DNA of 64,000 nucleotides from NCBI GenBank assembly GCA_000091205.1, contig AP006501.2. One strand, written 5' to 3'. Numbering within the stretch: position 1 is the first letter of the stretch; the number at the start of each line of letters is the position of its first letter. The position numbers and the translations under genes were made by a program. Positions 25,787 through 61,452 of the stretch are shown one piece after another. Below the pieces are notes generated by a model. It did not search any database. It saw only the letters and a program-made list of their open reading frames with translations, and was not told the DNA's origin. The DNA comes from Cyanidioschyzon merolae (taxonomy: Eukaryota).

Positions 25787-25855
25787 AAGCGGTGACGGTG
25801 GTGGTGTAGTCACCGTCGTGCATAGGCTCACGGGGAGGCGCAGCTCCACTGGAAC

Positions 25856-40547: not shown

Positions 40548-41876
40548 TCAGATAAACATGGAACATTGACCCATCCGCTATGTTCCTTTTCATATGATTT
40601 TTTCTGAGCGATCTTAGATGCACCATTGGCATTCGAGGTGCAGCAGTAGGTGCGTACGGATTCATACGTGGTTTCGGGGCTCCAGCTTGTCTATTCAGTG
40701 TGCCGCTATCGACTAGTTGGTGCTGGAATTTTTTAGTGCGCTGGAATCAAAACATTACGTGTTGCTATCGAATACGGGATCGCAACAGAATACATGTCAC
40801 TGACCAAATCGTATGTACAAGCGTCCGCTCTCCTCCTTTGCTACCGTTTCGTATGCTTCAGTCACACAATCTTCGTGTTTTCCATCTTTCCGTATCACAG
40901 AGGCTCGTGAGTGCGGCTACTCGTACCGCCAGATTGACGCGGATAATACCTCGACAACGCCCCGTAGCGGCCGCTTTGTAAGCGCATCCCCAACAGTCAC
41001 TGAACCTGTCACGTCAAATGATCCTGATCGATTGAACGGCAAATCCGTCTGCCTTCGTGGGCATCGACGGAACTGCATTCACGCTCAGCTTGATCCATCT
41101 CACCGGGCTATGCTGGCAGGGTCTCCCGTCTCTCCTGCTAGAATGTGAGAGCATCGTCGACTAGGGCTTGGGTTAGCGCAGCGATCGCTTCCGGGGCGGC
41201 GAGCGCCTCACCGCTTCTGACCGAGTCAGCGTCGACGCATCGAGAATGCTCGACATCGTGCACCGACCTGGACTTTGCTGCAGATACCTCTATTATCCTG
41301 GATACGATCGCGTTCCGCATACGCTCTATCGAACGGAGCAGCGTGCGCTTTCGAGTGCAGCGGACAGCGTACTTGCCAAGCGTCCGCTCAGGAGTGGAAA
41401 CAGCGGCGGGTTCCATGTCGAACCTCGTTTACTGCGAATAGCACGAACACGGGCAAAGCGTGTAGGCATCACGCGCGATAGGGCGACGCTCGGATGACGA
41501 GGGTGTTTGGCGAACACACGGGAACGACTACCGTTATCCAAGCGTCGCTGCTGCAGCGCACGAATCTATTCTGTATACGAGCAAGATGAGCGCGACGAGG
41601 GAAGCGAAGCTCGTAACGTCCGCCTGGACGTGACCTGCATTGAGCACAGCCAAAAGCAACGAGACCGACACATGAGCGCTGCACTCCATGTCCTTCGACG
41701 AAGGAGAACGCTGCTGGCGTGAGAGGAAACGGAGGCGTATGGAAACACGGAGAGAAGCGAAAGGACCGAGAGGCAGTCGCACCAGAAACCGTAAGGGCTG
41801 GTCTTGACGACGCCCGAGAACACACTTAAACTTTAGCTCGCATACCCGCATAAGAGGTGCATTTTCATACTACGCT
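40548..41876 (+). repeat. 1.33-kb dispersed repeat, copy A. It is the direct-repeat partner of 60131-61452.
   Basis: tcagataaacatggaacattgacccatccgctatgttcc ... cttaaactttagctcgcatacccgcataagaggtgcattttcatactacgct is shared with copy B, with only a handful of substitutions. Flanks diverge immediately outside. No convincing protein domain was found in any frame. Confidence 0.85.
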
Positions 41877-42593
41877 GACATGGATGTAGAGTGCACCCCG
41901 AATGGAACCATCTGAACGCGCTCCACCTTGTTCTAATTTGGGTGCAGCACACGGGCTCACCACCTGTTCGAGACAAACGTTGCGAATGATCTGCAAGTGC
42001 GGCGCCCTACCAGTGCCTCTACGCATGGAGATTTCCATAGATATTCGAGCAGTTCTTGTAGGGCGCTCTAGCGCCATTACATGGAAAACATTCTGTGCTG
42101 CACACTCGAATCGGTGCCCTGGTTGAAACCAGTCATTCAGGATGCTGGAGCAACAACCATCTCAGCGGACATGGACCGAGCATCCCCGGTTCTAAAAGAA
42201 GCAGTGTTGCAGATCGGTGATACGGCAGGCCTCTCTAGAGAGTACCCAGACAGGCATGTATGAATCTGGGGTATTTTCGAATGCTTTCAGGACGATCATG
42301 ATGATGCGTTGCTTGCTCGGAAGCATCTGCAGCGTACCTGTTTGTGTACCAGCGCACGCGGGTGTGCGCCCTGTGCACCTGCGCAGCGACGTACGTGATT
42401 GTCTACCCAGGCCTCCTTGTCTGTTGTATCGTCACCGACTACTAGACGAGTTGCTGCACATGCGCAGCAGGAGAGAGGTCTCGTCGATGTAACAAGCTGG
42501 TGTGTTGAGCCCTGGTGAGCTGTTCACTGCGTTCTGTCTGGTTTCGTCGGGACTCTTGAACGCCCGGTTCGTCGTTGCTGAGTTTAACCAGCG

Positions 42594-43535
42594 ATGACGT
42601 TGCTGCACTTTAGAGGAAGGCGTCAAGCCGAGACCAGCCGCGCAAGCACCGAGATAAACTCTGAAAACCGCTCGCACTCTTCAACTGGTGGTGCTTTGAA
42701 TCCAAGCGAGGCGAACACAGAGCACGACGAGGTGATGGCGGAGCTTCACGACCTTCTGGTTCGTGAGCTGACCGATTGCGGTCTCATTGACTTGTTTACG
42801 TCGCAAAGCTTGCCTCAGTATGCATCAGAAAAGGATACCCTGACCGATGCAGGGTCAGAGAAGCAGCACAAAGCGACCGAGCTGGGAAACGGCGCCTCGG
42901 GCGGCGTGTTTCAACACTGGACCGGACCCTCGCGGCCTGCACCAGCTGACTTGTTAACCGTAGAGTCGCCACACGGTCGCACGGAGGAGCCAAGCGGTAA
43001 CCGCGGGTCCTTTCAGCGGGACGTACCGCCACTCGAGGACCAAAATGAGCCCATTTCCAGGGCTATGCAGCGCATCCGAGCTGCACTGCGACGCTGGAAA
43101 CCGCTCCACGGCGAGGTCGACCTCGAGACCCTCGAGCGCCTCAAGAACTCGATCGTTGAGCGCTCTGCCTGGTTTTTACGCGAGCAGGCAGAACAACGAG
43201 CCCGCTGGAAGGCAATGCGTCAAAACCCTGCCTATGTCGTTGAAGACTTTACAGCGAACCAGCGAACCTTCTTCTCATGGATTCGGACCAGTTTCCGTAT
43301 GGTCCTTACGGGAGCAGCCATTGGAAAGCTCTTGCACGGAACCAGCGTCATTATTCTCGGGGTACTGTATGCTGCCCTTGGCCTAATCTGCATTGCAGCG
43401 GGCACGATGCATTTTTACCATTGGCAGCGAACATTGTACAATCATCGATATTTGCGGGATTCGCGTCCTTTCATCGTGGTGTTCCTGGGAATCACTGCGA
43501 CCAGTGTCGTCGCTCTAATGGCTTGTTGGAAATAG
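42594..43535 (+). CDS. DUF202 (YidH-like) domain membrane protein, possibly VTC-family-like
   Basis: The C-terminal NQRTFFSWIRTSFRMVLTGAAIGKLLHGTSVIILGVLYAALGLICIAAGTMHFY matches the DUF202 consensus (ER.FLAW.RT.L.....G.A.) followed by hydrophobic helices. The ATG is at 42594. Confidence 0.5.
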   Translation: MTLLHFRGRRQAETSRASTEINSENRSHSSTGGALNPSEANTEHDEVMAELHDLLVRELTDCGLIDLFTSQSLPQYASEKDTLTDAGSEKQHKATELGNGASGGVFQHWTGPSRPAPADLLTVESPHGRTEEPSGNRGSFQRDVPPLEDQNEPISRAMQRIRAALRRWKPLHGEVDLETLERLKNSIVERSAWFLREQAEQRARWKAMRQNPAYVVEDFTANQRTFFSWIRTSFRMVLTGAAIGKLLHGTSVIILGVLYAALGLICIAAGTMHFYHWQRTLYNHRYLRDSRPFIVVFLGITATSVVALMACWK

Positions 43536-44042
43536 GTGCCAGCCCGGAGTAAGCGCCGCTGACCGTGACCCGACGCTGCACCACTGAGCGAGCGCATTCT
43601 CTTGTGCACATGCGAATGCGTCGCTATATCCGTATCGTATCGACCTGTATAATACTATCCATGACATTGCAGGCGCACCGCTGCAGCATTGGGCATCTGC
43701 TGACACCCGACTAGGCCAGGTGCGGTGTTGTCTTCAAGTGAATCTGGGTTACCACGGCGGATAAACATGCGAACCTCGACGACATTCCGGATCTGACTTG
43801 TTCCCCTCGCCCGCTCTGTCTACGGATGACGTCAACTCGACCAATGTGCAGCGCTTCTCCGCTCACAACCAGCGATGCTTCAGGCAAAGTCCTTCACCGT
43901 TATGCTCGATGCTGTGCGCATGCGGTTATTGGAAAAGGCGACCCCGATGCTGATACTCTGTTTCGTACATATCTCAGTGCATTGCGCTCTGGTCTGAATC
44001 AACGTCACTGGATATGTTCGTCGGCTTTGCCCAGAGAAACTG

Positions 44043-45326
44043 CTATGAAGCCGTTGGGCTCGACACGGGATCTTCGCTGGCGATGTCCTCGGCCTCGTCC
44101 TCGGAGTCTATTTCATCCGTCGCTGGCCAGATGCTCGGAGGCATATGCTTCATCTGGACAGAGGGAGCACCTTCTAGTTGGCGCAATTGTTCGATAACTT
44201 TGCTCTTCACCTTCTCTAGATAATCTCTCGAATTCTGGTTCTCCAGTTCACGCATTGGTTGAATATGGAGAGAATATTCTGGAGCGAAGTATTCCCAGTA
44301 ATCATTGTATGGAATCTGGGCGTCTACCGATATGCCTAGAAGCACCGAGGTCTCAAAGAGCCAGCAGCGGGCAACGTTTCGGATGTTGTAGCCACCACCG
44401 CCGAGGACCAGCATCGGGATTCGGAACGAACGAACAAAAGCCACCGCATTCGCATGTCCCTGTACCGTCAAGTTAAAGCACCCGAGTCGATCATGGGCCA
44501 GAGAATCCGCGCCACACTGCATCACGATTGCACCCGGTTGATATACTTCGATGACCTTGGTTATTATCGGCTCGAAAATGCGACTGAAACCTGCATCATC
44601 CATGCCGTCTTTCAGGGGCACGTTCACCGCGTATCCTTCACCGCGCCCGTAGCCGCGGTCCCATACATCTCCGGTTCCCGGGAAAAAGTTGTCTCCGTAT
44701 TTGTGGAAGGACACCGTGAGCACTCGATCTGTGGTGTAGAAGGCTTCTTCGACACCATCACCATGATGCACATCAATATCGATGTAGAGCACACGCGGGT
44801 AGAGACGCAGCAGTTCGAGAATTGCCAGTACGATATCGTTCACATAGCAGAAACCGCTCGCTTCACTTTTCTTGGCATGATGAAGACCACCTGCCCAGTT
44901 AATCGCAATATCACTGGTACCCGACATGAGTTTTCTGGCACCGTCGATACTACCGCCGGCAGATACGGCGCAAAAGTCCCAAAGACCGTCAAACAGCGGA
45001 CAGTCGCCGTGTTGTCGTCCGACGTTAAACCGCTGTAGCTGGTCCAAAACGTCGTCGGTTATGGTGTCCGGGGTTGTGTTTCGCAGGAACTCTATATAGT
45101 CGTGGGCGTGGAACTTTTCGCACTCCTCAGGGCTCGCTTTACGAGGCTTGTAGACGTCCATATGGCGATAGAGACCGTACGCGAGACATAGGTTGTGCGT
45201 GATGGCCATTCGGTGCGGTTTCATGGGATGATGCTGTCCATAATAGTAGCCCCCAACATCAAAGTCCATAAAATAGGCCACGCGCAAACGGTCGGTGGAA
45301 CCATACAGAGCCTGGCTCGACAGCAT
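44043..45326 (-). CDS. Class I histone deacetylase (Rpd3/HDAC1-2 type)
   Basis: [67 protein letters not shown]..., [63 protein letters not shown] and [15 protein letters not shown] are canonical class I HDAC blocks, including the catalytic HH and D.H.GDG motifs. The ATG is at 45326. The acidic Ser-rich tail is typical. Confidence 0.9.
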
Positions 45327-45449
45327 GAGTCCAGTGAAGATCGAGACGTTCGCTAGAGCACCGAAAACAAGCGAGGAACCTGAAGCGTCCGGGTGGCTTT
45401 GTATGCACGGATGCTCGAAGCCTAGCTAGCGCACAACTTGGCTGAGGAT

Positions 45450-48005
45450 GCGCACCCCTGGAAACAAACGTCTTTCAAAAGAAAAACGTTGCTGCCAGTG
45501 GTACAGTAGTGGCGGCAACCGCACCCTAGCCAAGAAGTCTCCAACTGATGTGCAGACGCCTTCCAGCTTTTTTCGACTGGCCACCCACTACTGCTTCCAA
45601 CTTTTTCCCATATAATTCCACATTCAGAGATGGTTCCATAAAGTTTTCTCTTGTCAGCTCTGGGGGTCTATTCTCCATCAACGCATATTTCCTTATATTG
45701 CTGGCAGCATTAAAGTCTCGGTTCATAAACTCCATACGTTTCGTGCCGTTGGGAGTTGTACTCACTAATGCAAGTAGTCCACGAACTTTCGCGCTCCTTT
45801 CCATTTGCTCTTCCGTCAGCGTACCGTACTTTCTTATAACCTCAGGACTCCGCTGGCACTTTTCCATCTCGACCCTCTGAAGTGTACACCCTAGCTCATG
45901 GTGTGTATAGGACGTTCGAAACTCATCTACAGGTATCGTGACGATACTCCGTGCACACTCTTTGTACGTTCTTGTCGTTGGAGCTGGCGTAGTTCCTTGC
46001 TTGGGTCTTCCGTCACCCTGCTCCGTACGCTACTACGAGTCTCTGACTTTCATCCTCCTTCAAGGCGCTCAGCAGATTGAAAAAGTTCGCGAATGCACGC
46101 TGCTTCCCACAATACAAATTCATTCGCAGTCGAACCCACCGGGGCTTGGTCTACTCTTTCCACAGCGCATACCAGTGAGCAATACGAAGTTCCATGAATT
46201 TCCGAAGAGCCTGAATGTCCGCTCGTCGGCTCGTCACCTCGCTCATAGCTTCCAGATGCTCTTTCATTCTTTCATTCCATGCAGCAATTTTCTTCCTCGC
46301 ATTCATTATACCGGATTCTCGATAGTATCTCGCTCTCGAGAACCTCAAAAGACGCATGTATTTCTGACGTAAGTTACCATCAGTACCATCTTCCGCACGC
46401 TGGGGTACTGCGATGGTTATGTTATTTGTGTTTCCGGGATCCGCGCTGACGACAAAGTCGTTATCTTGCACCTCCTGCGTCGCAGGATCCGCCTCCTTCT
46501 CATCTTCATGCATCGTCGCGCCTGCATCCTTCGTCTCGGGCGCAGCCGAGGGAGGGACTGGACGATCTGTCTTCAACCGCCGATAGTGTATACACAAGGC
46601 TACTCCATCGGTTTCGATCATCTCAGTGAATACCTTTTGTTTGCTGACTTTGAGACGTTTGAAATCGAAGATATTCTTCCAGTATGTCTGCCGGTTTTCA
46701 CCGGAGAATTCCTTCCTGCTAACATCGAAATCAGGACTGATCTCGCTCGTGATGCTGCAAAGACGCCAGAGTCGATAGTCACAAAATGTGACTTGATATT
46801 GTACATTGGAACCACGTTGAAGCGCTTCCCCATTAGGAACGCCTTCCGTCTCTCCCACTCTTCATTTTTTCCTCATTCAGCCTCATCTCTGCCGTGCGTT
46901 CGAGTTCGCGGTCCAAAAACACGAAATACCTCAAGATGAGGAGGTAGTATCTTTCCTTATCTTTTCCAACTCTGATATCTTGTCTGCTGGATTAACCAGC
47001 CCCAGTACCGCACGGTGCTCTTGTATAACCGCACGGATTACAGAAGCTTCATTCGTGCACTAATTCGACGCCTTCTTGTCAACGAACTCGATCTCATCTT
47101 CATGATGGCGATCGTTCGTGATGCAATTGATAATCGCCCATTTTCCTTCGCGAGACAGACCCGGGTGGAGTGCAACCACGGCGCGTATCATGAAACGTTC
47201 GAAGTTCGCTGTCAAATGGTTCTTCAGATTCGTGAGGTACTTCATGGCCCCGTAGCTGTAAATATCCCAGTCACCCTTGTACCGAGTACCCTCGAAGCTG
47301 TAGAAGGAATGTTTTTCGTGGAGGGCATGCACTAGCACATTTTCCCTCCGCGCTTTCTCTGTACCAAGCATCAGGTGAGGAATAAAGGTCTTGTCGAAGA
47401 ACTCGCCCGGAATCTCGACCTTTTCCATGTGCGTCCCGTCGCGATACATCTCTCTCACCAAATGCATCAGTCCTGACGACGCCTTGACAATATTCTTCGA
47501 GTACGACGCAACACGTTTTTCGATAGCTTCTCGCAACTTTTCCCTGTACGGATCCTTGATCTGTCCAAGAAGAAAGGTTTTCACCACCATCTCGTCGCAC
47601 AGTTGTCTTTCTTGCCGCTTTCGACGTAGGGCCTCCCCCGTTTTTGCGTTTTCTTCTTATCCTGCTCTTCTGGAATCGGCACTGTTTTTTGTTTTTTTTC
47701 TGGCACCCGGCGACACTGGGCCTCCAGGATCGTAGACTTGCTTTTTCATAGCTTTCCTTTTTTAGTTTTTTTTGAGAAAGAACGCTCTTTGAACTCTTCT
47801 GTTATATACTGCGAAAAAAACACTTGATTAGACTTGTTCGAAGTTTGAAACACAATTGAAATGAAAAACTGTACTTGGCTATGAAGTTAACGAAAATACA
47901 ACTTTTACATTAGATCTACATGCTAGAGATCAGGATCACGTTCCCCTTCAACAACGGCATGTGCGTAGCGTCTCATGCCTGCCTGATCTCCGAGGTGCAC
48001 TCACC
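45450..48005 (-). mobile_element. TnpB-like (Fanzor-type) element copy 2. It forms the left arm of a 2.5-kb inverted repeat.
   Basis: It is the reverse complement of 52281-54800 at near identity. Coding remnants are 47060..47590 (the N-terminal piece, ending KKASN then TAG), 46151..46858 (the middle piece with [15 protein letters not shown]) and 45526..45867 (C-terminal MEFMNRDFNAASNIRKYAL...). A Lys/Arg-rich putative NLS segment lies further 5'. Confidence 0.75.
45526..47590 (-). pseudogene. Fanzor/TnpB-like nuclease remnant (copy 2). It has in-frame stops and lacks one 20-aa internal repeat present in copies 1 and 3.
   Basis: The middle piece reads ...[51 protein letters not shown]..., which has a single [11 protein letters not shown] unit compared with two in copy 3. 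Confidence 0.65.
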
Positions 48006-48559
48006 GAGCGCGATGCAAACTAGTCACAAATTATTTATTAAAGAACAACTATCTTAAAAGCCCCATACAGCACGCGCGCCTATGGGGTCTAGTTTTTCCG
48101 AAGAAGCTCTGAAAGTGGGTTAAACCGGGGTGCTTGGGCGACGACGAAGGAAGCCCACGCCAGGGACCATGACCGCAACGAACGGAGGGGCGGAGGCAGT
48201 GGCAGCAGAAAATATTGACGAGAGTTCTGAGTAGTTATCCGCTGCTCCCGAAACAACGCTGCAGGTTCCGGCGCAAATCCTGGATCCATCCTCGAACTCG
48301 GGCTACGTTTTACCTCCCACCTTGAGCACCTACCTCAACTTTGGAAACACTCTCGGCGGATACTTCGGAAGGCGGCTATCGATATGCTCGTGGTCGAAGC
48401 TGGAATAAGCGACTTACCCGCCTATGTGTTTGGGGAACGGATACGTAACCGCTGAACGGGTGCTTTGCAGACTGTTCCCAATGGTTGAGGGTAGCTTCAC
48501 GCGTCCGGCAAGATAAAGTTCGCATTCGAATCGACCTTGACTAATGTACTTCTGATTCT

Positions 48560-51500: not shown

Positions 51501-52276
51501 CGAGACGAAATCCCCGAGACGCTGACATATTTAAGCTTACAGTGCCCGCGCTCGAAGCAGGAGCGCAGCGAGCTCCTTGAAGGACAGCAGGAGCTCGGCA
51601 TCACCGTGATAGTCGAAGGCCGGACACTCACTCTGAGTGTAGCACTGGCAACTGATGGTCCGCTAACGGAGCCTCAGCGCTCATGAGTGGCGAAGAAACT
51701 CACATGCTACCTTCTAGGCAGCAGGTCCAACGAATCGGATGAGCACACGGGTTTAGTGCTCTTTGTGCCTACCCACTGTGGTGGGTGTCAAGCACAAACC
51801 CGCATTGCCAACCGACAACACATTCAATGCATGATCACGAAGGAAAGAGGCGGCTCGCACGATATATCCTAACAGCCAAGTTTCTCCAGCGTGTCGTGCA
51901 GCGAAGACAAGCCTGCATCCGCAGACTGTCCGAGCACAAACTGACGACGAGACCCGATTCTACTTCGGTTGAACCACGCCTCGAGCCGACGCGCTCTGGG
52001 GTATAGAAAAGCTGCTCTAGCTCGATGAACTATCTGCTCCAGCATTTAAGGTCCAAAGGCGGATACGGAAAGGCAGGTACTAGGCACACACGATAGGACG
52101 TATGAAACGACCAGAGTATCCGAGGTGAAGTATAGGTACTGTAGCTTGGAGGCAGGCTGTTTGATGGATACCTAACCGCGCACTGAAAAAAATAACATAA
52201 AAAAGTAAGAAAAGAAAAAGCGCACAATTGGAAAATGCTGGCACAAGTAAACGTCTTGTCCATGAAAAAAAGAATC
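48560..52276 (+). mobile_element. Degenerate non-LTR (LINE) retrotransposon with APE-like, RT and CCHC remnants and a 3' A-rich end
   Basis: 48620..48952 carries IGFASWNICGVAS, an AP-endonuclease-like start. 49764..50039 and 49891..51141 carry RT blocks (VWRTAEVVSILKK..., YRTMRLIPSIMKLL, CFIDFQKAFDTVPHE, GLRQGDRASPRLFNIFIND, LLADDVVLLA). 51066..51686 has a CCHC-like knuckle (CPCYRDEIPETLTYLSLQCP). Frameshifts separate the pieces. The 3' end (...catgaaaaaaag) abuts arm B at 52281. The 5' boundary is approximate. Confidence 0.75.
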
Positions 52277-52280
52277 GCGC

Positions 52281-54800
52281 TCGGTGAGTGCACCTCGGAG
52301 ATCAGGCAGGCATGAGACAAGACGCGCGTGCCGTTTTTGAAGGGAAACGCGATCCTGATCAGTAGCGTGTTGTTCTGCTGTAAAAGTCGGATTCCCGTTC
52401 AGATCATAGCAAAGTATAGTTTTCATTTCAATTGTGTTTCAAACTTCGAACAAGTCTAATCAAGTGTTTTTTTCGCAGTATATAACAGAAGAGTTCAAAG
52501 AGCGTTCTTTCTCAAAAAAACTAAAAAAGGAAAGCTATGAAAAAGCAAGTCTACGATCCTGGAGGCCCAGTGTCGCCGACTGCCAGAAAAAAAACAAAAA
52601 ACAGTGCCGATTCCAGAAGAGCAGGATAAGAAGAAAACGCAAAAACGGGGGAGGCCCTACGTCGAAAGCGGCAAGAAAGACAACTGTGCGACGAGATGGT
52701 GGTGAAAACCTTTCTTCTTGGACAGATCAAGGATCCGTACAGGGAAAAGTTGCGAGAAGCTATCGAAAAACGTGTTGCGTCGTACTCGAAGAATATTGTC
52801 AAGGCGTCGTCAGGACTGATGCATTTGGTGAGAGAGATGTATCGCGACGGGACGCACATGGAAAAGGTCGAGATTCCGGGCGAGTTCTTCGACAAGACCT
52901 TTATTCCTCACCTGATGCTTGGTACAGAGAAAGCGCGGAGGGAAAATGTGCTAGTGCATGCCCTCCACGAAAAACATTCCTTCTACAGCTTCGAGGGTAC
53001 TCGGTACAAGGGTGACTGGGATATTTACAGCTATGGGGCGATGAAGTACCTCGCGAACCTGAAGAACCATTTGACAGCGAACTTCGAACGTTTCATGATA
53101 CGCACCGTGGTTGCACTCTACCCGGGTCTGTCTCGCGAAGGAAAATGGGCGATTATCAATTGCATCACGAACGATCGCCATCATGAAGATGAGATCGAGT
53201 TCGTTGACAAGAAGGCGTCGAATTAGTGCACGAATGAAGCTTCTGTAATCCGTGCGGTTATACAAGAGCACCGTGCGGTACTGGGGCTGGTTAATCCAGC
53301 AGACAAGATATCAGAGTTGGAAAAGATAAGGAAAGATACTACCTCCTCATCTTGAGGTATTTCGTGTTTTTGGACCGCGAACTCGAACGCACGGCAGAGA
53401 TGAGGCTGAATGAGGAAAAAATGAAGAGTGGGAGAGACGGAAGGCGTTCCTAATGGGGAAGCGCTTCAACGTGGTTCCAATGTACAATATCAAGTCACAT
53501 TTTGTGACTATCGACTCTGGCGTCTTTGCAGCATCACGAGCGAGATCAGTCCTGATTTCGATGTTAGCAGGAAGGAATTCTCCGGTGAAAACCGGCAGAC
53601 ATACTGGAAGAATATCTTCGATTTCAAACGTCTCAAAGTCAGCAAACAAAAGGTATTCACTGAGATGATCGAAACCGATGGAGTAGCCTTGTGTATACAC
53701 TATCGGCGGTTGAAGACAGATCGTCCAGTCCCTCCCTCGGCTGCGCCCGAGACGAAGGATGCAGATGAGCAGAAGGCGGATCCTGAGACGCAGGAGGTGC
53801 AAGATAACGACCTTGTCGTTGGCGCGACGATGCATGAAGATGAGAAGGAGGCGGATCCTGCGACGCAGGAGGTGCAAGATAACGACTTTGTCGTCAGCGC
53901 GGATCCCGGAAACACAAATAACATAACCATCGCAGTACCCCAGCGTGCGGAAGATGGTACTGATGGTAACTTACGTCAGAAATACATGCGTCTTTTGAGG
54001 TTCTCGAGAGCGAGATACTATCGAGAATCCGGTATAATGAATGCGAGGAAGAAAATTGCTGCATGGAATGAAAGAATGAAAGAGCATCTGGAAGCTATGA
54101 GCGAGGTGACGAGCCGACGAGCGGACATTCAGGCTCTTCGGAAATTCATGGAACTTCGTATTGCTCACTGGTATGCGCTGTGGAAAGAGTAGACCAAGCC
54201 CCGGTGGGTTCGACTGCGAATGAATTTGTATTGTGGGAAGCAGCGTGCATTCGCGAACTTTTTCAATCTGCTGAGCGCCTTGAAGGAGGATGAAAGTCAG
54301 AGACTCGTAGTAGCGTACGGAGCAGGGTGACGGAAGACCCAAGCAAGGAACTACGCCAGCTCCAACGACAAGAACGTACAAAGAGTGTGCACGGAGTATC
54401 GTCACGATACCTGTAGATGAGTTTCGAACGTCCTATACACACCATGAGCTAGGGTGTACACTTCAGAGGGTCGAGATGGAAAAGTGCCAGCGGAGTCCTG
54501 AGGTTATAAGAAAGTACGGTACGCTGACGGAAGAGCAAATGGAAAGGAGCGCGAAAGTTCGTGGACTACTTGCATTAGTGAGTACAACTCCCAACGGCAC
54601 GAAACGTATGGAGTTTATGAACCGAGATTTTAATGCCCCTATCAATATAAGGAAATGAGCGGTGCTGGAGGAAAGACCCCCAGAGTAGACAATAGAAAAC
54701 CTTTTTGGACAACCTCTCAAAGTCGAACTATATGAGATAAAGTTGGAACCAGTATTAGGTGGCCGATCCAAAAAGGCTGGAAGGCGTCTGCACATCAGCT
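52281..54800 (+). mobile_element. TnpB-like (Fanzor-type) element copy 3. It forms the right arm of the inverted repeat.
   Basis: Coding remnants: 52434..52690 is a K/R-rich NLS-like stretch in another frame. 52696..53226 is the N-terminal piece. 53428..54192 is the middle piece (...[27 protein letters not shown]...RIAHWYALWKE). A continuation lies in the same frame after a TAG (TKPRWVRLRMNLYCGKQRAFANFFNLLSALKEDESQRLVVAYGAG). 54476..54658 reads MEKCQRSPEVIRKYGTLTEEQMERSAKVRGLLALVSTTPNGTKRMEFMNRDFNAPINIRK. A conserved 3' noncoding tail of about 140 bp follows. Confidence 0.75.
52560..54658 (+). pseudogene. Fanzor/TnpB-like RuvC nuclease remnant (copy 3)
   Basis: The domain order matches TnpB/Fanzor. 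There is an N-terminal region, a RuvC-I-like hydrophobic-D-P-G motif, then a F..F..L..K.E....VV block, then a Cys-containing region, then the RuvC-III-like NRDFNA.INI. In-frame stops occur after KKASN, after TTSSS (four stops within 25 codons), after ALWKE and after YGAG. Confidence 0.65.
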
Positions 54801-54953
54801 GGAGGCGTTTCGTCTAGGGCGCGTTCGCCGGCACGACTGTACACGGCCGCCGGCTGTGCGTCACGTGGAGCCGCGAGCGGCGGGCTTCTACCAAGTGCCG
54901 CTTGTACCAAACGCACTTGCACCTCGTGTGGACACAGACGCATACCTGAGTGC

Positions 54954-57875
54954 ATGGCCGATTCTGGAGATGAAACGGAGTGGGAACTTGCTGCCGAGAA
55001 GTTTGTAGCGACTGTTGCACCGAAAGAAACTACTCCGTCTCGGGGGAGGCCCTCGAGTCGGGCGACGCGCTCGCCGTTGCGCGAGGCTCCGCCCGAGGCC
55101 GCGCCCAACGCGGGAGCCGGCACTGCAGGCCGACCTGGACGCAGTGCGGGCAGCTCGGGGCCCTCGGAACCCACCGCAGACACCACCACAGGCACCACAC
55201 GCGTCGCTCGAGGTGCCCAACCGAAACCTGCAGGCAAGCCGAGCGGCGTGGGTGGAAACAGAGGGAGCGACGTGGCTGCGGCCCCGTCTCAGGTTATTCA
55301 GGTTTTGCGTTTCAGCAGTGATGCGTCGCTCACAGCAACCGTTCGGGGGAGTCAAGCAAACCAGCAGGCGCTCTGGGATCGGGCGCGATCGGCGTTCGAG
55401 TCGGCGCTGCGTCGGAACGCAACACGACTGGAGCTCGATGCGCTGGCAGCGGCCCTGCAGACTGTAGGCGTCGACATCTCTCTTGGTCGAAACGCAGGCA
55501 CACGCGGCGGCGGACCTGCAACGAACGGGCCCACTGACGGCAGCGGTGGACGGCGTTCGGGAGCCGCTGCGGGCGGCACGGCGTCGCGAACTCCGCAGCC
55601 AGCGCTCACGCGAGGCCGCAACGCCTGGACCCCCTCGTTTCTGACCAAAACTGCGGATACGTCCGCTACAGAGGGGGAGAATCTGGTCAATTCCTCTCGA
55701 CGAAAAGCAAAAGCTATACTGAACAAACTCGTACCGGAGAAGTTCGTCACGCTAGCGCAGCAGATTCTTGATATGCCGCTCCATCATTACGACGTACTGG
55801 AAGCGGTGATTTCAGAAATCTTTGATAAAGCGCTTGCGGAGCCGTATTTTTGTGGAGTCTACGCAGATCTGTGTGAAGTTTTGAACCGCGCGCTTCCGAG
55901 CATCGCGATCGAGAGTGCTTCGGGGACCAAACAAACCAACTTTCGCAAAATGCTTCTCGCGCGCTGCCAAGCTGAGTTTGTGCAGCGCGCCCTAGCCTCG
56001 GAAGAGCGCGCAACAGACGAGCAGGAACTTGAGGTTTGCGCCCACAACCGACGCCGCACGCTAGGAAATACAATTTTCGTGGGTGAGCTCTTCAAGCGGC
56101 ATCTGCTGAGCGAAAAAATCATTCATGAGTGTGTACAGATGCTGCTGAAAGAGGGCGAGAACGAAGATAGCATCGAAACGCTTGCCAAGTTGCTCTCCGT
56201 CGCCGGCAGCAGCATGGATCGCCCTGAGGCTCGGTCCTACATGGACGCCTACTTTACCAAGATCGAAGAAATGGCAAACAACGCACAAATTCGAGCTCGT
56301 TATCGGTTTATGCTCAAGGATTGCGTTGAGCTGCGTAAGCAGAAATGGAAGCCGCGACGAGCCCAAGAACGGCCAGCGACACTGGATGAGATTCACGGGA
56401 AAAAGTCCGGCCGTGCCGCTCGGCAAGCGAGTCAGTCGCTGGCACGCAAAGCTGCTCAGCTGCGCTTCACGGGAGCTGATGCAGAGGCGCCCAAGCCGGA
56501 GGCGGAATCCACAGTTCCAGCAGGGCAAGTGTCCGCGTCTGCCACTGTCCAGGGTCGTGTTGAGAACGCCCGTAACCAGAACGTTGCCGGCGAGACGGTC
56601 ACGGACGCTGCACACGCCAAGTCGGAGTCGGGACCGGTCCCCGATCGGACTGTCGTTTGGACCGAAAACCCTGAACTATTGCGGACGTATATTCGTGGTA
56701 TCATTGAAGACTACGTGGTGAATCCGTATCCGGCAGAGGTACAGGTGGCGCTCACCGAGTCCGGACTTGCCGCACAGCCTGACCTGCTGGCTTTGGCTGG
56801 CGTTCAGGAACTCTTCTCCATGGTCTGCAGTGCGCGCGGGCATGAACGGCAGCCGCTTGTTCGATCCTTTGGAGATGCCTTCCAGCATGTACTTTCTAGG
56901 GAGAAGCTGCTCGAGGCTCTTGTATCGATTACGTCCAATTTGCTTACCTTCGAAGACGAGCTTGATATGCCTACAGCAGGCAAAGTTCTCGGCGAGTTTC
57001 TCGGGACGTTATGCACTAGCCACTGCGCTACGTTCTTACACGACGCTGCTGATATTCATACAGTACTGGCAGCGGTTCCGCCTAATAGACAGGCATCCGT
57101 GCTGCGTTCCTTCTTGGAAACGCTCTTCCGACAGTATCCTTCAGATATGCGAGAGCGCTTCGGCGCTTCCCTGCGAGCACTACGTCCGCTTTTCGTGTCG
57201 CTCCCGCAAACGGAACAGCGCGAACTCGAAGAGCTACTTGCAAAATATGAACTGCTTGAGCTCGTTCCCGAATGGCAGCTCCGACGCCAGCTCCAATACT
57301 ATCTGGAACCTGGAAAGGAGCGTATCGCAGATGCAGCAGACTGGTTGCGAAGCTTCCTGCCCAGAGTGCGGGAAACGCTACGCTCCGAGGACGCAACAGC
57401 ATCCACTGCAAAGTCCAGTCTGAACGAATGGTACGCCTTTTGTCGATTCACTGCGGACCATATCCTATCAACTTATGTCATGGAAGCGCAATCGAGTAGT
57501 ACGATGGATATCATGCGGCGACTACGCCTGATGGTGCCGCTTCTTCGTGAAACAGCCGGAAACATGCCCGCGACCGATGAAACCGACGACGACGACGACG
57601 ACAGTGACCCCGCGGAAGACAAGGAGTGGCGTCAAGCCCAAGTGGCTTTTGCAGTGCAAGCAGGTTGTTATCGTTTGGACTTTCCCACTGATCTCATAAG
57701 CGGCATGTTCCAGGTGCTGTACGACGCGGATGTGATCTCAGAGGAGGCATTCGATCGCTGGCGGGAAGATGTACACGATACGACACCAGGAAAGCTCAAG
57801 GCGCTATTTCATGTGAATGCTTTTCTGAATTGGCTCAAGGAGACTGATGAAGAACCGGAGAAATCCGATGTGTAA
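54954..57875 (+). CDS. eIF4G-like translation initiation factor (MIF4G, MA3-like middle and C-terminal W2 domains)
   Basis: The MIF4G block reads RRKAKAILNKLVPEKFVTLAQQILDM...LEAVISEIFDKALAEPYFCGVYADLCEVL...NTIFVGELFKRHLLSEKIIHECVQMLL. The C-terminal W2-like block reads ISEEAFDRWREDVHDTTPGKLKALFHVNAFLNWLKE, followed by an acidic tail. The track ORF begins at 54759 inside the Fanzor 3' tail. The first ATG, MADSGDETEWELAAEKF at 54954, is the more plausible start. Confidence 0.75.
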   Translation: MADSGDETEWELAAEKFVATVAPKETTPSRGRPSSRATRSPLREAPPEAAPNAGAGTAGRPGRSAGSSGPSEPTADTTTGTTRVARGAQPKPAGKPSGVGGNRGSDVAAAPSQVIQVLRFSSDASLTATVRGSQANQQALWDRARSAFESALRRNATRLELDALAAALQTVGVDISLGRNAGTRGGGPATNGPTDGSGGRRSGAAAGGTASRTPQPALTRGRNAWTPSFLTKTADTSATEGENLVNSSRRKAKAILNKLVPEKFVTLAQQILDMPLHHYDVLEAVISEIFDKALAEPYFCGVYADLCEVLNRALPSIAIESASGTKQTNFRKMLLARCQAEFVQRALASEERATDEQELEVCAHNRRRTLGNTIFVGELFKRHLLSEKIIHECVQMLLKEGENEDSIETLAKLLSVAGSSMDRPEARSYMDAYFTKIEEMANNAQIRARYRFMLKDCVELRKQKWKPRRAQERPATLDEIHGKKSGRAARQASQSLARKAAQLRFTGADAEAPKPEAESTVPAGQVSASATVQGRVENARNQNVAGETVTDAAHAKSESGPVPDRTVVWTENPELLRTYIRGIIEDYVVNPYPAEVQVALTESGLAAQPDLLALAGVQELFSMVCSARGHERQPLVRSFGDAFQHVLSREKLLEALVSITSNLLTFEDELDMPTAGKVLGEFLGTLCTSHCATFLHDAADIHTVLAAVPPNRQASVLRSFLETLFRQYPSDMRERFGASLRALRPLFVSLPQTEQRELEELLAKYELLELVPEWQLRRQLQYYLEPGKERIADAADWLRSFLPRVRETLRSEDATASTAKSSLNEWYAFCRFTADHILSTYVMEAQSSSTMDIMRRLRLMVPLLRETAGNMPATDETDDDDDDSDPAEDKEWRQAQVAFAVQAGCYRLDFPTDLISGMFQVLYDADVISEEAFDRWREDVHDTTPGKLKALFHVNAFLNWLKETDEEPEKSDV

Positions 57876-58297
57876 AAGCGACGCGATGCTAGCGCTCCAG
57901 TGCAACGTCCCGAAACTCGATGGCGCTTCGGTCCAATGCGTCCTGGATGAACGCACCCGTTCGTCGTGCCGCGGAGCCTGCTGTCCGATGGATGCGGTAT
58001 ATCGAAGATCCCGCATCACCGCGCTGCACGAGGGGTTATGCGAATATACGCTTCATTGCAGAGTCGCGAATATGGTCATTCTGAAACTTGCTGTTTGCTC
58101 CGCCACTGGGACCCGATCAACCGCAGTGCTCGGGTTTCGACGCCAGTCACAGAAGACGCCTGTTGAACATTCGCTGGATGCAGCCGGTCTGCGATGTGAA
58201 ACGACACCCATGCGTTCGCGTACGCATACATCTATAACATACCTCCCGTCCGGTCGACGCCTCGAGAGCTCGGTCGTAAGTCATGCAAACCGTACGT

Positions 58298-58890
58298 TTA
58301 TGCCGTGGATATGACCTGAGCAATAACGAGCTCGACATCGCCGTCACAGATCGCTTGCTTCACCAGTCCTCCGTACGAACGCAACAGAGGTACTTGAGCG
58401 TCGCTTTTCCCGTCGATCGTATCCCGCCACGGGCGATCATCGAGGATACTCAAGACCCAGTTAAGTTCTGCTGTCATCGCAGGCCCATCACGCTGACTAT
58501 CGTAACAACCCTGCAGACTCTCGATGAGGAAAGCTTCACCAGCGGCGAAAAGCTCCTCTTCAGCCGATGCTGCCTTTGCTGCTGTCTCGTTGTTCGCGTG
58601 ATAGGCATAGCGCTGAAAGCGGATCCCGCGCAAGTGACCGGAGCAGCCCAAGACCACTGCTGCGTCAAGCTGTCGACCTGTAAGAATCTTCCGCACAGCA
58701 GTCATGAGCTCGGATCCCGAGCGTACCCGTGAAACGTACATGCGGCTGTTGCTCTGATCGTCTGGAACGGCCATTCCGAAAGCTACACGAATACCGGGTA
58801 CTGCGACTTGCGTCCCGTGATCTAACAAGCCTACTTGCACGGCGTGCGCTTCGAGTTCGTCTACAACAGGTCCATCGTTTGGCGCTGAAC

Positions 58891-58936
<46 letters not shown>

Positions 58937-59599
58937 TTCGGCGCTGGACGGCATCCGGTCCGGCTGCGTTTCTCCTGGTTCCTCGGCGGCCGCTGCCTTA
59001 CTGCCTCGCGTGTGTGTTCCTTCTTCGCTGATGCTCCTTCGTTCAGGACGGAGATGTCCACTGGCAAACAGGAAGAAACGATCTCCAAGAGACCGTCGTC
59101 GACCACCCTGAATGTAGGACACAACAACCGGTTGTTGATAGCGGCTGCCGTGCGCTGTGCACCAGTCTGCTGCCTCGATAACAAACGGCTGGAATGCGTT
59201 TGCTCCTTCTAAAGTGAACGCAAGCCGATTCTGTTCTTGAGATGGGTGGGCGCGTTCTGCTTCCCATGCCTTCCACTGGGACTCGCCAACCACGTGCTCG
59301 AGACGCTGGGGCGCGTCATAGGTTCGGCACTCCTGCTGAATACCAAGGCGCTGATGGAACTCATCCAGGATGGCCTCTGGCGTCTCTGGACGCGGCTCGA
59401 GCGGTTTCCGAACTCGACCGCACGTCACCACGCCGTAGCTTGACACCGTAAACGCCATAGGGAGTGAAGCGGAGTTCATAAACTCCACGAGGCCGTTGAG
59501 CAAGTCGACACCAGGCTCCAACACGCAAAATAGAATGCGCAACGGGAGTGAACTCGGAGGGCGTACCGAGACGCGCGCTTTTGATGTTGGTGCGTCCAT
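58298..59599 (-). CDS. Hypothetical protein. It may contain two PPC/DUF296-like domains, separated by a poly-Thr/poly-Ala linker.
   Basis: ATG at 59599. Two similar halves (LRILFCVLEPGVDLLNGLVEFMNSASLPMAFTVSSYGVVTCGRV and VQVGLLDHGTQVAVPGIRVAFGMAVPD...AVVLGCSGHLRGIRFQ) are reminiscent of the DUF296/PPC fold. The TTTTTAAAAAAAAAA linker is encoded by (GCA)10(GTA)4 at 58893-58936. Confidence 0.35.
58893..58936. repeat. (GCA)n(GTA)n trinucleotide microsatellite inside a coding region
   Basis: agcagcagcagcagcagcagcagcagcagcagtagtagtagtagt. Confidence 0.9.
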
Positions 59600-60130
59600 G
59601 TTTGCAGGCTAGCACCAGTGTGTCCCTGGGTCGCTCGAAACGAGAACCAACGCACCGTGCGTGTGTTCGTCGAACGAGCAGTCTCTGGTGGTAGCGACGA
59701 GTGAATGCGGAGTGTTCAAGAGAGTTCCTCACGATCAGCAGAGTGACTCGAGAGGCACGTACCAAAGAATAGAGTTAATCGGTTCCCTGGCCTGTCTACG
59801 AGGGGACGCAAAGGCGTCCTTGGGGTTGTTCTACGAAAACGACTCGTTCCACCTGCGCAGCGCACTTGAATGGACTCCACCAGTGGTGAAACTTTGACAC
59901 CTGTAAACCAACCTGGGTCCAACGGGCCTCTCTTCGCGCTATCACCGTACCCATCGAAAAGCAACGCTCAACAGTGGTGCGCAGTACATTGCAAGTGGCT
60001 GTCAGTCGAATGCTCTGGAGAGAAACATCTCCTCGTTCCGTCGGGATTGTGCGGTGCGGTGCGGTGCGGTGCGCGTGGAGCGGCGTCACGATAGCAGGAA
60101 GGAGGATTATGTTGACGTTTAGCTCAGATA

Positions 60131-61452
60131 AACATGGAACATTGACCCATCCGCTATGTTCCTTTTCATATGATTTTTTCTGAGCGATCTTAGATGCACC
60201 ATTGGCATTCGAGGTGCAGCAGTAGGTGCGTACGGATTCATACGTGGTTTCGGGGCTCCAGCTTGTCTATTCAGTGTGCCGCTATCGACTAGTTGGTGCT
60301 GGAATTTTTTAGTGCGCTGGAATCAAAACATTACGTGTTGCTATCGAATACGGGATCGCAACAGAATACATGTCACTGACCAAATCGTATGTACAAGCGT
60401 CCGCTCTCCTCCTTTGCTACCGTTTCGTATGCTTCAGTCACGCAATCTTCGTGTTTTCCATTTTTCCGTATCACAGAGGCTCGTGAGTGCGGCTACTCGT
60501 ACCGCCAGATTGACGCGGATAATACCTCGACAACGCCCCGTAGCGGCCGCTTTGTAAGCGCATCCCCAACAGTCACTGAACCTGTCACGTCAAATGATCC
60601 TGATCGATTGAACGGCAAATCCGTCTGCCTTCGTGGGCATCGACGGAACTGCATTCACGCTCAGCTTGATCCATCTCACCGGGCTATGCTGGCAGGGTCT
60701 CCCGTCTCTCCTGCTAGAATGTGAGAGCATCGTCGACTAGGGCTTGGGTTAGCGCAGCGATCGCTTCCGGGGCGGCGAGCGCCTCACCGCTTCTGACCGA
60801 GTCAGCGTCGACGGATCGAGAATGCTCGACATTGTGCACCGACCTGGACTTTGCTGCAGATACCTCTATTATCCTGGATACGATCGCGTTCCGCATACGC
60901 TCTATCGAACGGAGCAGCGTGCGCTTTCGAGTGCAGCGGACAGCGTACTTGCCAAGCGTCCGCTCAGGAGTGGAAACAGCGGCGGGTTCCATGTCGAACC
61001 TCGTTTACTGCGAATAGCACGTACACGGGCAAAGCGTGTAGGCATCACGCGCGATAGGGCGACGCTCGGATGACGAGGGTGTTTGGCGAACACACGGGAA
61101 CGACTACCGTTATCCAAGCGTCGCTGCTGCAGCGCACGAATCTATTCTGTATATGAGCAAGATGAGCGCGACGAGGGAAGCGAAGCTCGTAACGTCCGCC
61201 TGTACGTGACCTGCAGTGAGCACAGCCAAAAGCAACGAGACCGACACATGAGCGCTGCACTCCATGTCCTTCGACGAAGGAGAACGCGGCTGGCGTGAGA
61301 GGAAACGGAGGCATATGGAAACACGGAGAGAAGCGAAAGGACCGAGAGGCAGTCGCACCAGAAACCGTAAGGGCTGGTCTTGACGACGCCCGAGAACACA
61401 CTTAAACTTTAGCTCGCATACCCGCATAAGAGGTGCATTTTCATACTACGCT
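60131..61452 (+). repeat. 1.33-kb dispersed repeat, copy B
   Basis: See copy A (40548-41876). More than 99% identical, in the same orientation, about 19.6 kb apart. Confidence 0.85.

What the first reader, a model, noticed from the sequence alone, without database searches (positions are those of the whole stretch)
40548..61452. Two >99% identical 1.33-kb direct repeats bracket an 18-kb block (DUF202 gene, HDAC, Fanzor/LINE cluster, eIF4G, PPC-like gene)
Copy A (40548-41876) and copy B (60131-61452) are in the same orientation. They differ by only a few substitutions and have sharp boundaries with unrelated flanks. I see no TG..CA termini, no terminal inverted repeats and no matching target-site duplication around the pair. 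An LTR-retrotransposon explanation is therefore unlikely, and host genes lie between them. The repeat has no recognisable coding capacity. It is either a young non-autonomous dispersed element or a segmental duplication. In either case it sets up the intervening 18 kb, including an essential HDAC and eIF4G, for NAHR deletion or circle excision.
Basis: seen in the sequence. Interest (0 to 1): 0.5.

Follow-up and report, generated by a model that had tools for sequence, protein, structure and literature searches.

The report
Twin copies of a dead transposon relic

Summary
Copy A is 40548-41876 and copy B is 60124-61452 (not 60131). Each is 1,329 bp, with 10 substitutions and no indels (99.25%).

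The window is Cyanidioschyzon merolae 10D chromosome 19. Independent wild-population assemblies contain all four repeat/flank junctions, so the pair is not an assembly artefact.

The unit is not an arbitrary segmental duplication. The window holds two more copies at about 50-56% identity (C 20437-21816 minus strand, D 10761-11846). Three further copies lie outside the window. Homology among the old copies starts and stops where the A/B identity does, within about 15 nt.

No single copy codes for anything. The family consensus, however, restores a frame ending "TASKCHSC…RNRDLNATINI". It matches Pfam PF07282, the TnpB/Cas12f zinc-ribbon domain, at E=3e-5, just under the curated threshold. A profile comparison also aligns it with the alga's known Fanzor1 family. 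That known family likewise has no inverted terminal repeats and no defined target-site duplications.

The sister genus Cyanidiococcus has the same gene order and short spacers at both sites. Both copies were therefore added to an ancestral arrangement.

Two short-read contigs show the reciprocal recombinant junctions. They are most likely assembly path switches.

The parts
40548..41876 (+). Copy A of the 1,329-bp unit. It lies in the 2.4-kb spacer between the 1058-aa ORF (gene X, ends 40189) and DUF202 (CMS067C, starts 42594). Family homology probably continues 7 nt further, to 41883 ('GACATGG').
   Evidence: the copy is present at the same junctions in wild contigs L002-L010
60124..61452 (+). 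Copy B of the unit. It lies in the divergent spacer between the PCC-domain gene (start 59599, minus strand) and the Methyltransf_16 gene (ORF from 61737).
   Evidence: the copy is present with both flanks in wild contig L014
20437..21816 (-). Copy C, an ancient full-length family member about 56% identical to A. It carries an internal 55-bp tandem duplication at 20777-20885.
   Evidence: nhmmer E=8e-71
10761..11846 (+). Copy D, an ancient family member about 50% identical to A, with an internal deletion of about 200 nt.
   Evidence: nhmmer E=2e-15 and 1e-9
41201..41719 (+). Relic of the TnpB/Fanzor-type reading frame inside copy A. About 173 codons remain in frame with one stop, and the frame is 44% identical to the family consensus protein over 160 aa. 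Codons 41498-41719 read '…LSKRRCCSAR…CIEHSQKQRDRHMSAALHVL'.
   Evidence: tblastn of the consensus against the window; Pfam PF07282 hit on the consensus
60780..61316 (+). The same relic frame in copy B: 179 codons with 2 stops, 43% identical to the consensus protein.
41877..60123 (.). The bracketed 18,247-bp block: DUF202, HDAC, Fanzor1-LINE-Fanzor1 cluster, eIF4G-like gene and PCC gene. The gene order is ancestral, being the same in Cyanidiococcus.

Best explanation
Shown: A and B are two copies of one discrete, coding-dead element that belongs to an old dispersed family in the Cyanidioschyzon lineage. Seven members were found. A to D lie in the window, E and F lie 8-18 kb to its right, and G lies elsewhere in the genome. 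The old members are about equally distant from each other (50-56% identity), which points to one ancient burst.

Supported but not proven: the founder was a Fanzor/TnpB-type element. Its consensus restores the C-terminal zinc-ribbon (TNB) and RuvC-III 'RDxNAxxNI' part of such a nuclease. Like the alga's known Fanzor1 family CMe-1A and bacterial TnpB-only, IS200/IS605 and IS607 elements, it has no inverted termini. The bacterial types make no target-site duplication, and none could be determined for CMe-1A.

Shown: both copies sit in spacers of a gene order that predates them. The sister genus has the same six genes in the same order with short spacers at both sites.

Inferred: one copy was made from the other by an end-to-end copying event of the whole relic, by transposition in trans or a related element-specific process. 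Gene conversion between the two copies has probably blurred their age since then.

Inferred: as 1.3-kb direct repeats in a recombination-proficient haploid, the copies are a substrate for deletion or circle formation. Loss of the intervening HDAC and eIF4G-like genes would be selected against, which would explain why the arrangement is stable across wild lineages.
For: Discrete family:
- nhmmer finds C and D, and a family profile finds exactly four copies in the window.
- E and F were found in wild contigs and G in an unrelated locus.
- Pairwise identities are 0.49-0.58 for all old pairs.
- Family conservation rises from about 0.3-0.4 to 0.53-0.62 exactly at the A/B left boundary. It returns to background within 7-15 nt of the right boundary.
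- No flank pair is similar (z<1.5), and the flanking genes are not paralogs.

Fanzor/TnpB origin:
- The consensus regenerates a 181-codon frame.
- That frame hits only PF07282 among 24,736 Pfam models, at E=3.1e-5 over profile positions 6-60 of 60. An independent second consensus gives E=3.1e-3.
- hhalign against a 25-sequence Fanzor1 profile from the same genome gives E=0.002-0.0045. None of 100 column shuffles reaches that score, and the reversed profile scores 13.3 against 29.8.
- The motif order fits the published signature [TS][TS]-x-x-Zn finger-x(5,50)-RD.
- CMe-1A lacks TIRs and has no determinable TSDs.

Real and fixed in the population:
- Nine wild contigs span A with reference flanks, and one spans B.
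- Many assemblies yield a stand-alone contig of 1305-1329 bp that equals the unit.

Added to an ancestral gene order:
- Cyanidiococcus loci L039 and L041 are collinear with the window.
- The PCC-methyltransferase spacer there is 609 bp, against 2,137-2,305 bp in C. merolae. The DUF202-gene X spacer is about 470 bp, against 2,404 bp.
- The family profile gives no hit at E<10 in about 29 kb of Cyanidiococcus sequence.

Neutral evolution: divergence between 10D and wild lineages is 1.0-1.35% in the repeat, 0.6-1.25% in the adjacent spacers and 0.07-0.64% in the genes.
Against: The Fanzor/TnpB assignment rests on sub-threshold profile signals:
- The Pfam score is 24.5 bits against a cut-off of 26.3.
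- NCBIfam gives no hit.
- Solved TnpB, Fanzor and Cas12f structures give no hit with either the consensus or the family profile.
- BLASTP and tblastn against the resident Fanzor1 are at shuffle level.
- Block-shuffled profiles reach the hhalign score in 7 of 100 trials, so most of the signal comes from the RD motif.
- No single copy hits Pfam.
- No RuvC-I aspartate was identified.
- No conserved 3' RNA fold was found.
- No intact relative turned up.

On the origin of the pair: A itself is as decayed as the other copies, so recognition of its ends by a transposase is not obviously possible. The termini show no similarity to those of the younger Fanzor1 family or the LINE. No empty site was found in a close relative, so neither the copying event nor its date was observed.
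Confidence: 0.6

Rival explanations
1. A and B are an old pair kept alike by concerted evolution. Both were inserted during the ancient burst, and continuous gene conversion between these two direct copies has kept them about 99% identical while all other copies drifted apart. Essential genes between them prevent loss of the pair by pop-out deletion.
For: No A-versus-B difference is fixed across lineages. At unit positions 136, 185 and 530, both 10D copies share one state and the wild A and B copies share the other, with L009 the exception at 136 and 185. The A/B identity stops 7 nt short of the family's apparent right end, and B's next 7 nt (AAAACGG) still match the family end (GACATGG) at 4 of 7 positions. 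Both copies occur in every wild lineage sampled.
Against: The wild 'haplotypes' come from short-read metagenome assemblies that cannot phase a 99%-identical 1.3-kb repeat, so shared states may be mixing artefacts. All 10 A/B differences lie in the interior: none falls in the first 318 nt or the last 139 nt. That is the opposite of the terminal erosion expected under long-term conversion. No other pair of family members shows any homogenisation. A 4-of-7 match is not significant (p about 0.07).
Confidence: 0.25
2. The pair is a plain segmental or repair-templated duplication. An arbitrary 1.3-kb piece of intergenic DNA was copied 19.6 kb away, for example during double-strand-break repair, and has nothing to do with mobile-element ends.
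For: There is no TSD, no TIR and no poly(A). Only two near-identical copies exist anywhere in the public data searched: one ORF cluster and only A or B flanks in all contigs. The source copy is a long-dead relic.
Against: Both ends of the duplicated segment coincide, within about 15 nt, with the ends of an ancient family present in at least five other places. For arbitrary breakpoints in a 2.4-kb spacer, this is roughly a 1-in-1000 coincidence.
Confidence: 0.1
3. The repeats are the terminal repeats of one large mobile unit (a giant LTR element or composite transposon), or they mark an inserted 18-kb block. On this view the single-repeat arrangement seen in contig L011 would be ancestral.
For: The repeats are direct and bracket a block. 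Contig L011 joins gene X, one repeat and the methyltransferase.
Against: Cyanidiococcus has the order methyltransferase-PCC-eIF4G-HDAC-DUF202-gene X with no repeat at either edge, so the block is ancestral and in place. There are no TG..CA termini and no TSD around the pair. No LTR elements are known in this genome. L011 switches from A-type to B-type variants inside the repeat, as a chimera or crossover would.
Confidence: 0.01
4. The unit is a functional non-coding module, such as a promoter, a leader or a long non-coding RNA gene, duplicated for regulatory reasons.
For: All copies are intergenic. Five of the seven lie 280-970 nt upstream of a gene on the same strand.
Against: Copies F and G break the orientation pattern. 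The unit diverges between strains as fast as the neighbouring spacers do. There is no Rfam family and no conserved fold in the 3' region. The family is absent from the orthologous promoters of the sister genus.
Confidence: 0.04

Closest known systems
CMe-1A, the Fanzor1-encoding element family of Cyanidioschyzon merolae (Bao & Jurka 2013, PMC3627910). It is very probably the '253-copy interspersed element with a WSV486-like ORF' of Nozaki et al. 2007 (PMC1955436).
   Same: It is in the same genome and is dispersed and old. It has no terminal inverted repeats, no determinable target-site duplications and an unknown class. The reconstructed C-terminal motifs line up in a profile-profile alignment: GQRAL with KQRAF, GNSGG with YGAG, and RNRDLNATINI with NRDFNAAINI.
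   Different: CMe-1A is about 3 kb and abundant; one search found 243 protein clusters. Its copies are about 80% identical to their consensus, and some still code. It is represented in this window by the other repeat family (6179-8358, 45450-48015, 52273-54859). The 1.33-kb family is shorter and far more decayed (50-56% pairwise identity), and it yields only 3 ORF clusters. It shows no DNA similarity to CMe-1A-type copies and no significant pairwise protein similarity.
Bacterial TnpB-only insertion sequences of the IS200/IS605 and IS607 groups (IS1341-type)
   Same: The size is similar (about 1.3-1.5 kb) and the element is essentially one tnpB-like gene. There are no TIRs and no TSDs. The C-terminal zinc-ribbon and RD motif matches PF07282.
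   Different: No subterminal hairpin pair or conserved target motif was demonstrated. No guide-RNA fold was found. No N-terminal (WED/REC) region or RuvC-I residue was identified. The host is a eukaryote.
Dispersed low-copy repeats that mediate non-allelic homologous recombination (NAHR substrates, as in genomic-disorder loci or yeast Ty/delta pairs)
   Same: The pair consists of direct repeats of more than 1 kb, more than 99% identical, 19.6 kb apart. Both reciprocal junction types appear in assemblies.
   Different: No validated rearrangement is known. The recombinant junctions come from single short-read contigs, and one of them carries an inverted-end artefact.

Membership tests
LTR retrotransposon (the two repeats as LTRs) | TG…CA dinucleotide termini on each LTR | tested here: not met
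   The unit starts TCAG and ends CGCT.
LTR retrotransposon (the two repeats as LTRs) | A 4-6 bp target-site duplication flanking the pair | tested here: not met
   The left flank of A ends …CCGGAT and the right flank of B starts AAAACG….
LTR retrotransposon (the two repeats as LTRs) | An internal region encoding gag/pol, not host genes | tested here: not met
   The internal genes are host genes in the same order as in Cyanidiococcus. The only RT belongs to a non-LTR element with an A-rich tail.
Fanzor/TnpB-type element (Fanzor1 such as CMe-1A; TnpB-only IS200/IS605/IS607) | The C-terminal signature [TS][TS]-x-x-[zinc finger]-x(5,50)-RD (OrfB_Zn_ribbon / PF07282) | tested here: inconclusive
   The consensus frame reads 'TASKCHSC…KCIDNS…RNRDLNATINI'. 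Its PF07282 match is E=3.1e-5 at 24.5 bits, below the 26.3-bit cut-off, and a second consensus gives E=3.1e-3. Individual copies do not hit, and there is no PDB or NCBIfam hit.
Fanzor/TnpB-type element (Fanzor1 such as CMe-1A; TnpB-only IS200/IS605/IS607) | A RuvC-I aspartate 125-275 residues upstream of the [TS][TS] motif | tested here: inconclusive
   Only speculative candidates appear in the consensus frames ('WIDEDSNST', 'SLDIRG'). No profile support was obtained.
Fanzor/TnpB-type element (Fanzor1 such as CMe-1A; TnpB-only IS200/IS605/IS607) | Homology to a bona fide family member | tested here: inconclusive
   hhalign against the Fanzor1 profile gives E=0.002-0.0045. None of 100 column shuffles reaches the score, but 7 of 100 block shuffles do. 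BLASTP and tblastn are not significant.
Fanzor/TnpB-type element (Fanzor1 such as CMe-1A; TnpB-only IS200/IS605/IS607) | No terminal inverted repeats and no target-site duplication (true of TnpB-only, IS200/IS605 and IS607 elements; CMe-1A lacks TIRs and its TSDs could not be determined) | tested here: met
   for the unit; the literature statements are.
Fanzor/TnpB-type element (Fanzor1 such as CMe-1A; TnpB-only IS200/IS605/IS607) | A structured guide RNA (omega/reRNA) gene at the 3' end | tested here: not met
   RNAalifold on the 3' ~180 nt of six copies predicts 0 pairs, and there is no Rfam hit. Decay could have erased the structure.
TIR DNA transposon / MITE | Terminal inverted repeats plus a fixed-length TSD | tested here: not met
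   Self-comparison finds only internal inverted matches of 17 nt or less, and there is no TSD.
Helitron | A 5'-TC and 3'-CTRR terminus, a 3' subterminal hairpin, and insertion between host A and T | tested here: not met
   The 5' TC is present, but the 3' end is CGCT. The host bases are T/G at A and C/A at B. The 3' 100 nt fold only weakly, at -6.9 kcal/mol.
LINE-mobilised retrocopy / SINE-like element | An A-rich or LINE-like 3' tail, a TSD, and variable 5' truncation | tested here: not met
   The resident LINE ends …ATGAAAAAAAG, and the unit has no such tail on either strand. There is no similarity to the LINE, and five of the six independent copies share the 5' end (copy G diverges upstream of profile position 590).
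Plain segmental duplication | An arbitrary segment unique to the two sites, with breakpoints unrelated to any element | tested here: not met
   Five further diverged copies share the same ends.

The most novel reading that the evidence does not exclude
A Fanzor/TnpB-type relic that lost its own coding capacity long ago was nevertheless copied end to end, without TIRs or a TSD, to a site 19.6 kb away in the recent past. That would imply trans-mobilisation of Fanzor-type elements by machinery still active in C. merolae. Candidates are the intact CMe-1A Fanzor1 proteins plus host homologous recombination, or an unknown recombinase. The result would be a precisely defined donor/target junction pair for studying how transposase-less Fanzor elements move, in a haploid alga in which gene targeting is routine.
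Probability: 0.15. Interest if true: 0.6.

Novelty: new member of a known kind. Interest (0 to 1): 0.3.

Why it matters
C. merolae is a model organism with a completely sequenced genome and very few transposons, and how its Fanzor-type elements move is unknown. If the relic assignment holds, the genome contains a second, older layer of Fanzor/TnpB-type elements that standard annotation misses, because no single copy codes for anything. The A/B pair is also a ready-made natural test of two questions. One is how 1.3-kb direct repeats behave in a recombination-proficient haploid when probably essential genes lie between them. The other is whether gene conversion homogenises dispersed repeats in this genome. 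In practical terms, the pair breaks or mis-joins short-read assemblies of wild Cyanidioschyzon populations, as shown by the collapsed 1.3-kb contigs and the two chimeric joins. People who build genomes from hot-spring metagenomes should be aware of this.

Tried and rejected
- Known RNA families and tRNAs gave nothing.
- The unit's own longest ORFs gave no Pfam hit.
- A codon-periodicity test between copies was negative. I later realised it cannot detect copies that decayed after insertion.
- Homology extending past B's right end, suggested by nhmmer, was rejected by shuffle controls.
- Paralogy of the flanking genes was rejected.
- The pattern 'every copy lies upstream of a same-strand gene' held for the first five copies but failed for F and G, so I dropped it.
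- A LINE-mediated retrocopy was rejected because the LINE has an A-rich tail and the unit has none.
- Shared termini with the younger Fanzor1 family were not seen.
- A conserved 3' RNA fold (omega-RNA relic) was not found.
- The solved-structure sequence search returned only chance hits to beta-lactamases.
- NCBIfam gave no hits.
- The exact PCC protein was not on record, probably because its poly-Ala tract varies.
I worked around this through cluster-member ids.
- The paper on 'highly diverged dispersed repeats' covering 72% of the genome (PMC11050394) does not describe discrete families and was not used.

Full report
**Observation.** A repeat scan and a gapped self-comparison confirm a direct repeat of 1,329 bp at 40548-41876 (A) and 60124-61452 (B). 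The copies differ by 10 substitutions and no indels, 99.25% identity. The differences lie at unit positions 319-1190. Identity ends abruptly on both sides, and the flanks of A and B score no better than shuffled sequence. The unit starts TCAG and ends CGCT. It has no terminal inverted repeat and no flanking duplication. It has no reading frame longer than 127 codons, no Pfam hit on its own frames, no Rfam family and no tRNA.

**Organism and reality of the pair.** Exact protein look-ups identify the window as Cyanidioschyzon merolae 10D chromosome 19, with DUF202 = CMS067C. The same locus occurs in many hot-spring metagenome assemblies that are about 99% identical to 10D.
- Nine contigs run from HDAC through DUF202 and copy A into the upstream gene.
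- One 44.6-kb contig spans PCC, copy B and the methyltransferase.
- Other contigs stop one k-mer inside the repeat.
- Seven independent assemblies produce a stand-alone contig of 1305-1329 bp that is the unit itself. This is the signature of a repeat with two flanks on each side.

The pair is therefore real and shared by 10D and wild lineages. No contig shows a third flank context. A protein-database search with an ORF that gene callers predict inside the unit returns a single cluster. Only two near-identical copies appear to exist.

**A discrete, old family.** A sensitive search of the window with the unit finds two diverged relatives. C is at 20437-21816 on the minus strand (E=8e-71), and D is at 10761-11846. 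A profile built from the copies finds exactly four in the window. Wild contigs that extend the region to the right contain two more, E and F. A profile search of the protein database leads to a seventh copy, G, in an unrelated locus. All old copies are 49-58% identical to each other, a star-like pattern. Conservation among them begins at the A/B left boundary and ends within 7-15 nt of the right boundary. No pair of flanks is similar, and the flanking genes are unrelated. The duplicated segment is therefore a whole element and not an arbitrary piece of spacer.

**What the element was.** Copies that decay after insertion carry no codon signal, so the negative periodicity test says little. The family consensus, in contrast, regenerates a 181-codon frame ending '…GGGYLVNIWEHLTASKCHSCKARNDAVYKKDEHGERSADRNFRLYMKCIDNSRKQRNRDLNATINILRLL…'. 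Its only Pfam match is PF07282, the zinc-ribbon TNB domain of TnpB/Cas12f (formerly OrfB_Zn_ribbon). The match is E=3.1e-5 over nearly the full profile, at 24.5 bits against a cut-off of 26.3. A second consensus that includes copy G gives E=3.1e-3. Copies A and B still keep about 180 codons of this frame with one or two stops.

Bao and Jurka define the Fanzor/TnpB signature as [TS][TS]-x-x-zinc finger-x(5,50)-RD. They describe a C. merolae Fanzor1 family, CMe-1A, with about 150 copies, a 3-kb consensus, no TIRs, undeterminable TSDs and an unknown class. They also list a Fanzor1 in white spot syndrome virus, which links CMe-1A to the '253-copy WSV486-like element' of the genome paper.

The window's other repeat family (6179-8358, 45450-48015, 52273-54859) encodes a frameshifted protein with '[10 protein letters not shown]', 'VVAYGAG', 'VDEFRTS' and 'NRDFNAASNI'. 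It has 243 related protein clusters in wild data, so it is the CMe-1A-type element.

A profile-profile comparison of the 1.33-kb family with 25 of those Fanzor1 proteins gives one collinear alignment at E=0.002-0.0045. None of 100 column-shuffled profiles reaches the score, and the reversed profile scores 13.3 against 29.8. However, 7 of 100 block-shuffled profiles do reach it, so most of the signal is motif-level.

The evidence against the assignment is as follows:
- Solved TnpB, Fanzor and Cas12f structures give no hit.
- NCBIfam gives no hit.
- Pairwise comparisons are at shuffle level.
- No single copy hits Pfam.
- No conserved 3' RNA fold was found.

I put the Fanzor/TnpB origin at about two in three.

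**Evolutionary setting.** Two loci from the sister genus Cyanidiococcus yangmingshanensis cover the whole region. They show the same order: methyltransferase, PCC, eIF4G, HDAC, DUF202, gene X. The spacers differ as follows:
- PCC to methyltransferase: 609 bp there, against 2,137-2,305 bp in C. merolae.
- DUF202 to gene X: about 470 bp there, against 2,404 bp.
- eIF4G to HDAC: about 0.9-1.4 kb there, against 9.4 kb.

Neither the family profile nor the Fanzor1 consensus hits anything in those 29 kb. The 18-kb block is therefore ancestral and in place. Copies A and B, and the Fanzor1-LINE cluster, were added in the Cyanidioschyzon lineage. This excludes a composite or LTR-like mobile unit, and it excludes contig L011 as an ancestral arrangement.

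Between 10D and wild lineages the unit diverges by 1.0-1.35%. That matches the adjacent spacers (0.6-1.25%) and exceeds the genes (0.07-0.64%). The unit is therefore not under detectable constraint.

**Age and exchange.** The A/B divergence of 0.75% is no greater than the divergence between 10D and wild lineages, yet both copies occur in all lineages. No A-versus-B difference is fixed, and several sites are shared by both copies within a lineage. This fits gene conversion between the copies, in which case 0.75% does not date the duplication. However, short-read metagenome assemblies cannot phase such a repeat, so the pattern may be partly artefactual. An old pair kept alike by conversion remains a live rival, at about one in four.

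**Recombination.** One Logan contig, L011, joins gene X, one repeat and the methyltransferase. One older JGI contig, L025, joins PCC, one repeat and DUF202. These are the two reciprocal products expected from crossing over between A and B. L011 switches from A-type to B-type variants inside the repeat. L025 carries a 92-nt inverted artefact at its end. Ten spanning contigs have the reference pairing. A deletion would remove the HDAC and eIF4G-like genes in a haploid. I therefore read both contigs as assembly path switches, while noting that only long reads or junction PCR can exclude rare real events.

**Verdict.** The finding is real and is now largely explained. It is a pair of copies of an old, coding-dead element, probably of Fanzor/TnpB ancestry, sitting in an ancestral gene order. 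It is a new member of a known kind and of modest interest.

Noticed in passing
window 45450-54859: Two inverted CMe-1A-type Fanzor1 elements (45450-48015 with the gene on the minus strand; 52273-54859 with the gene on the plus strand; 96-98% alike) bracket a 4.3-kb non-LTR retroelement carrying an RVT_1 ORF (49891-51141). The retroelement's A-rich tail abuts the 5' end of the right-hand Fanzor1 copy. In the sister genus the whole 9.4-kb cluster is replaced by a spacer of about 1 kb.
   Followed up: partly
window 6179-8358, 8560-8767, 16128-16382, 33762-34441: A third Fanzor1-type copy (93-94% identical to the others) is followed by a 5'-truncated LINE tail. A second isolated LINE tail lies at 16.1 kb. 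An ancient relic of the Fanzor1 family (nhmmer E about 1e-9) lies at 33.8-34.4 kb.
   Followed up: partly
loci L011 (Logan SRR29605859) and L025 (JGI 3300002182): Short-read contigs carry the two reciprocal A/B recombinant junctions: gene X-repeat-methyltransferase and PCC-repeat-DUF202. They are probably assembly chimeras, but they are also exactly what deletion and circle or tandem-duplication products would look like.
   Followed up: partly
loci L029-L033: In several wild assemblies the collapsed-repeat contig is 1,315 nt and starts at unit position 15, not position 1. This suggests a variant within the first 14 nt of one copy in those populations.
   Followed up: no
window 25793-26911: Ten tandem copies of a 91-bp unit (97-98% alike), with a strong positive GC skew (0.26), start 7 nt after the stop of the 1212-aa ORF (22148-25786). 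A separate 115-bp doublet lies at 27380-27609.
   Followed up: no
window 40548-40607 (and 60124-60183): The left end of the unit can form a subterminal hairpin: GGAACAT/ATGTTCC with a 13-nt loop, closed by TCAGA/TCTGA, at -13 kcal/mol with DNA parameters. The GAAC/GTTC core is kept in copies E and F but not in C or D. Its significance is unknown.
   Followed up: partly
window 58298-59599: The PCC-domain gene contains a long poly-Ala tract. Its exact product is absent from the public protein collection although its neighbours are present, which suggests that the tract length varies among strains.
   Followed up: no
window 61737-62738: The methyltransferase frame is open for 333 codons from a TTG, and metagenome gene callers predict 333 aa. 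The 10D annotation (BAM82715) gives 277 aa. The Cyanidiococcus alignment starts near residue 95, so the shorter start is more likely.
   Followed up: no
left flanks of copies B, C, D and F (window 60114-60123, 21817-21826, 10751-10760; L034 ~2987-2996): A CGT or CCGT motif lies 2-10 nt upstream of the left end in four of six independent copies. After correction for the number of possible motifs this is not significant, but it could be a target-site preference or the true first bases of the element.
   Followed up: no
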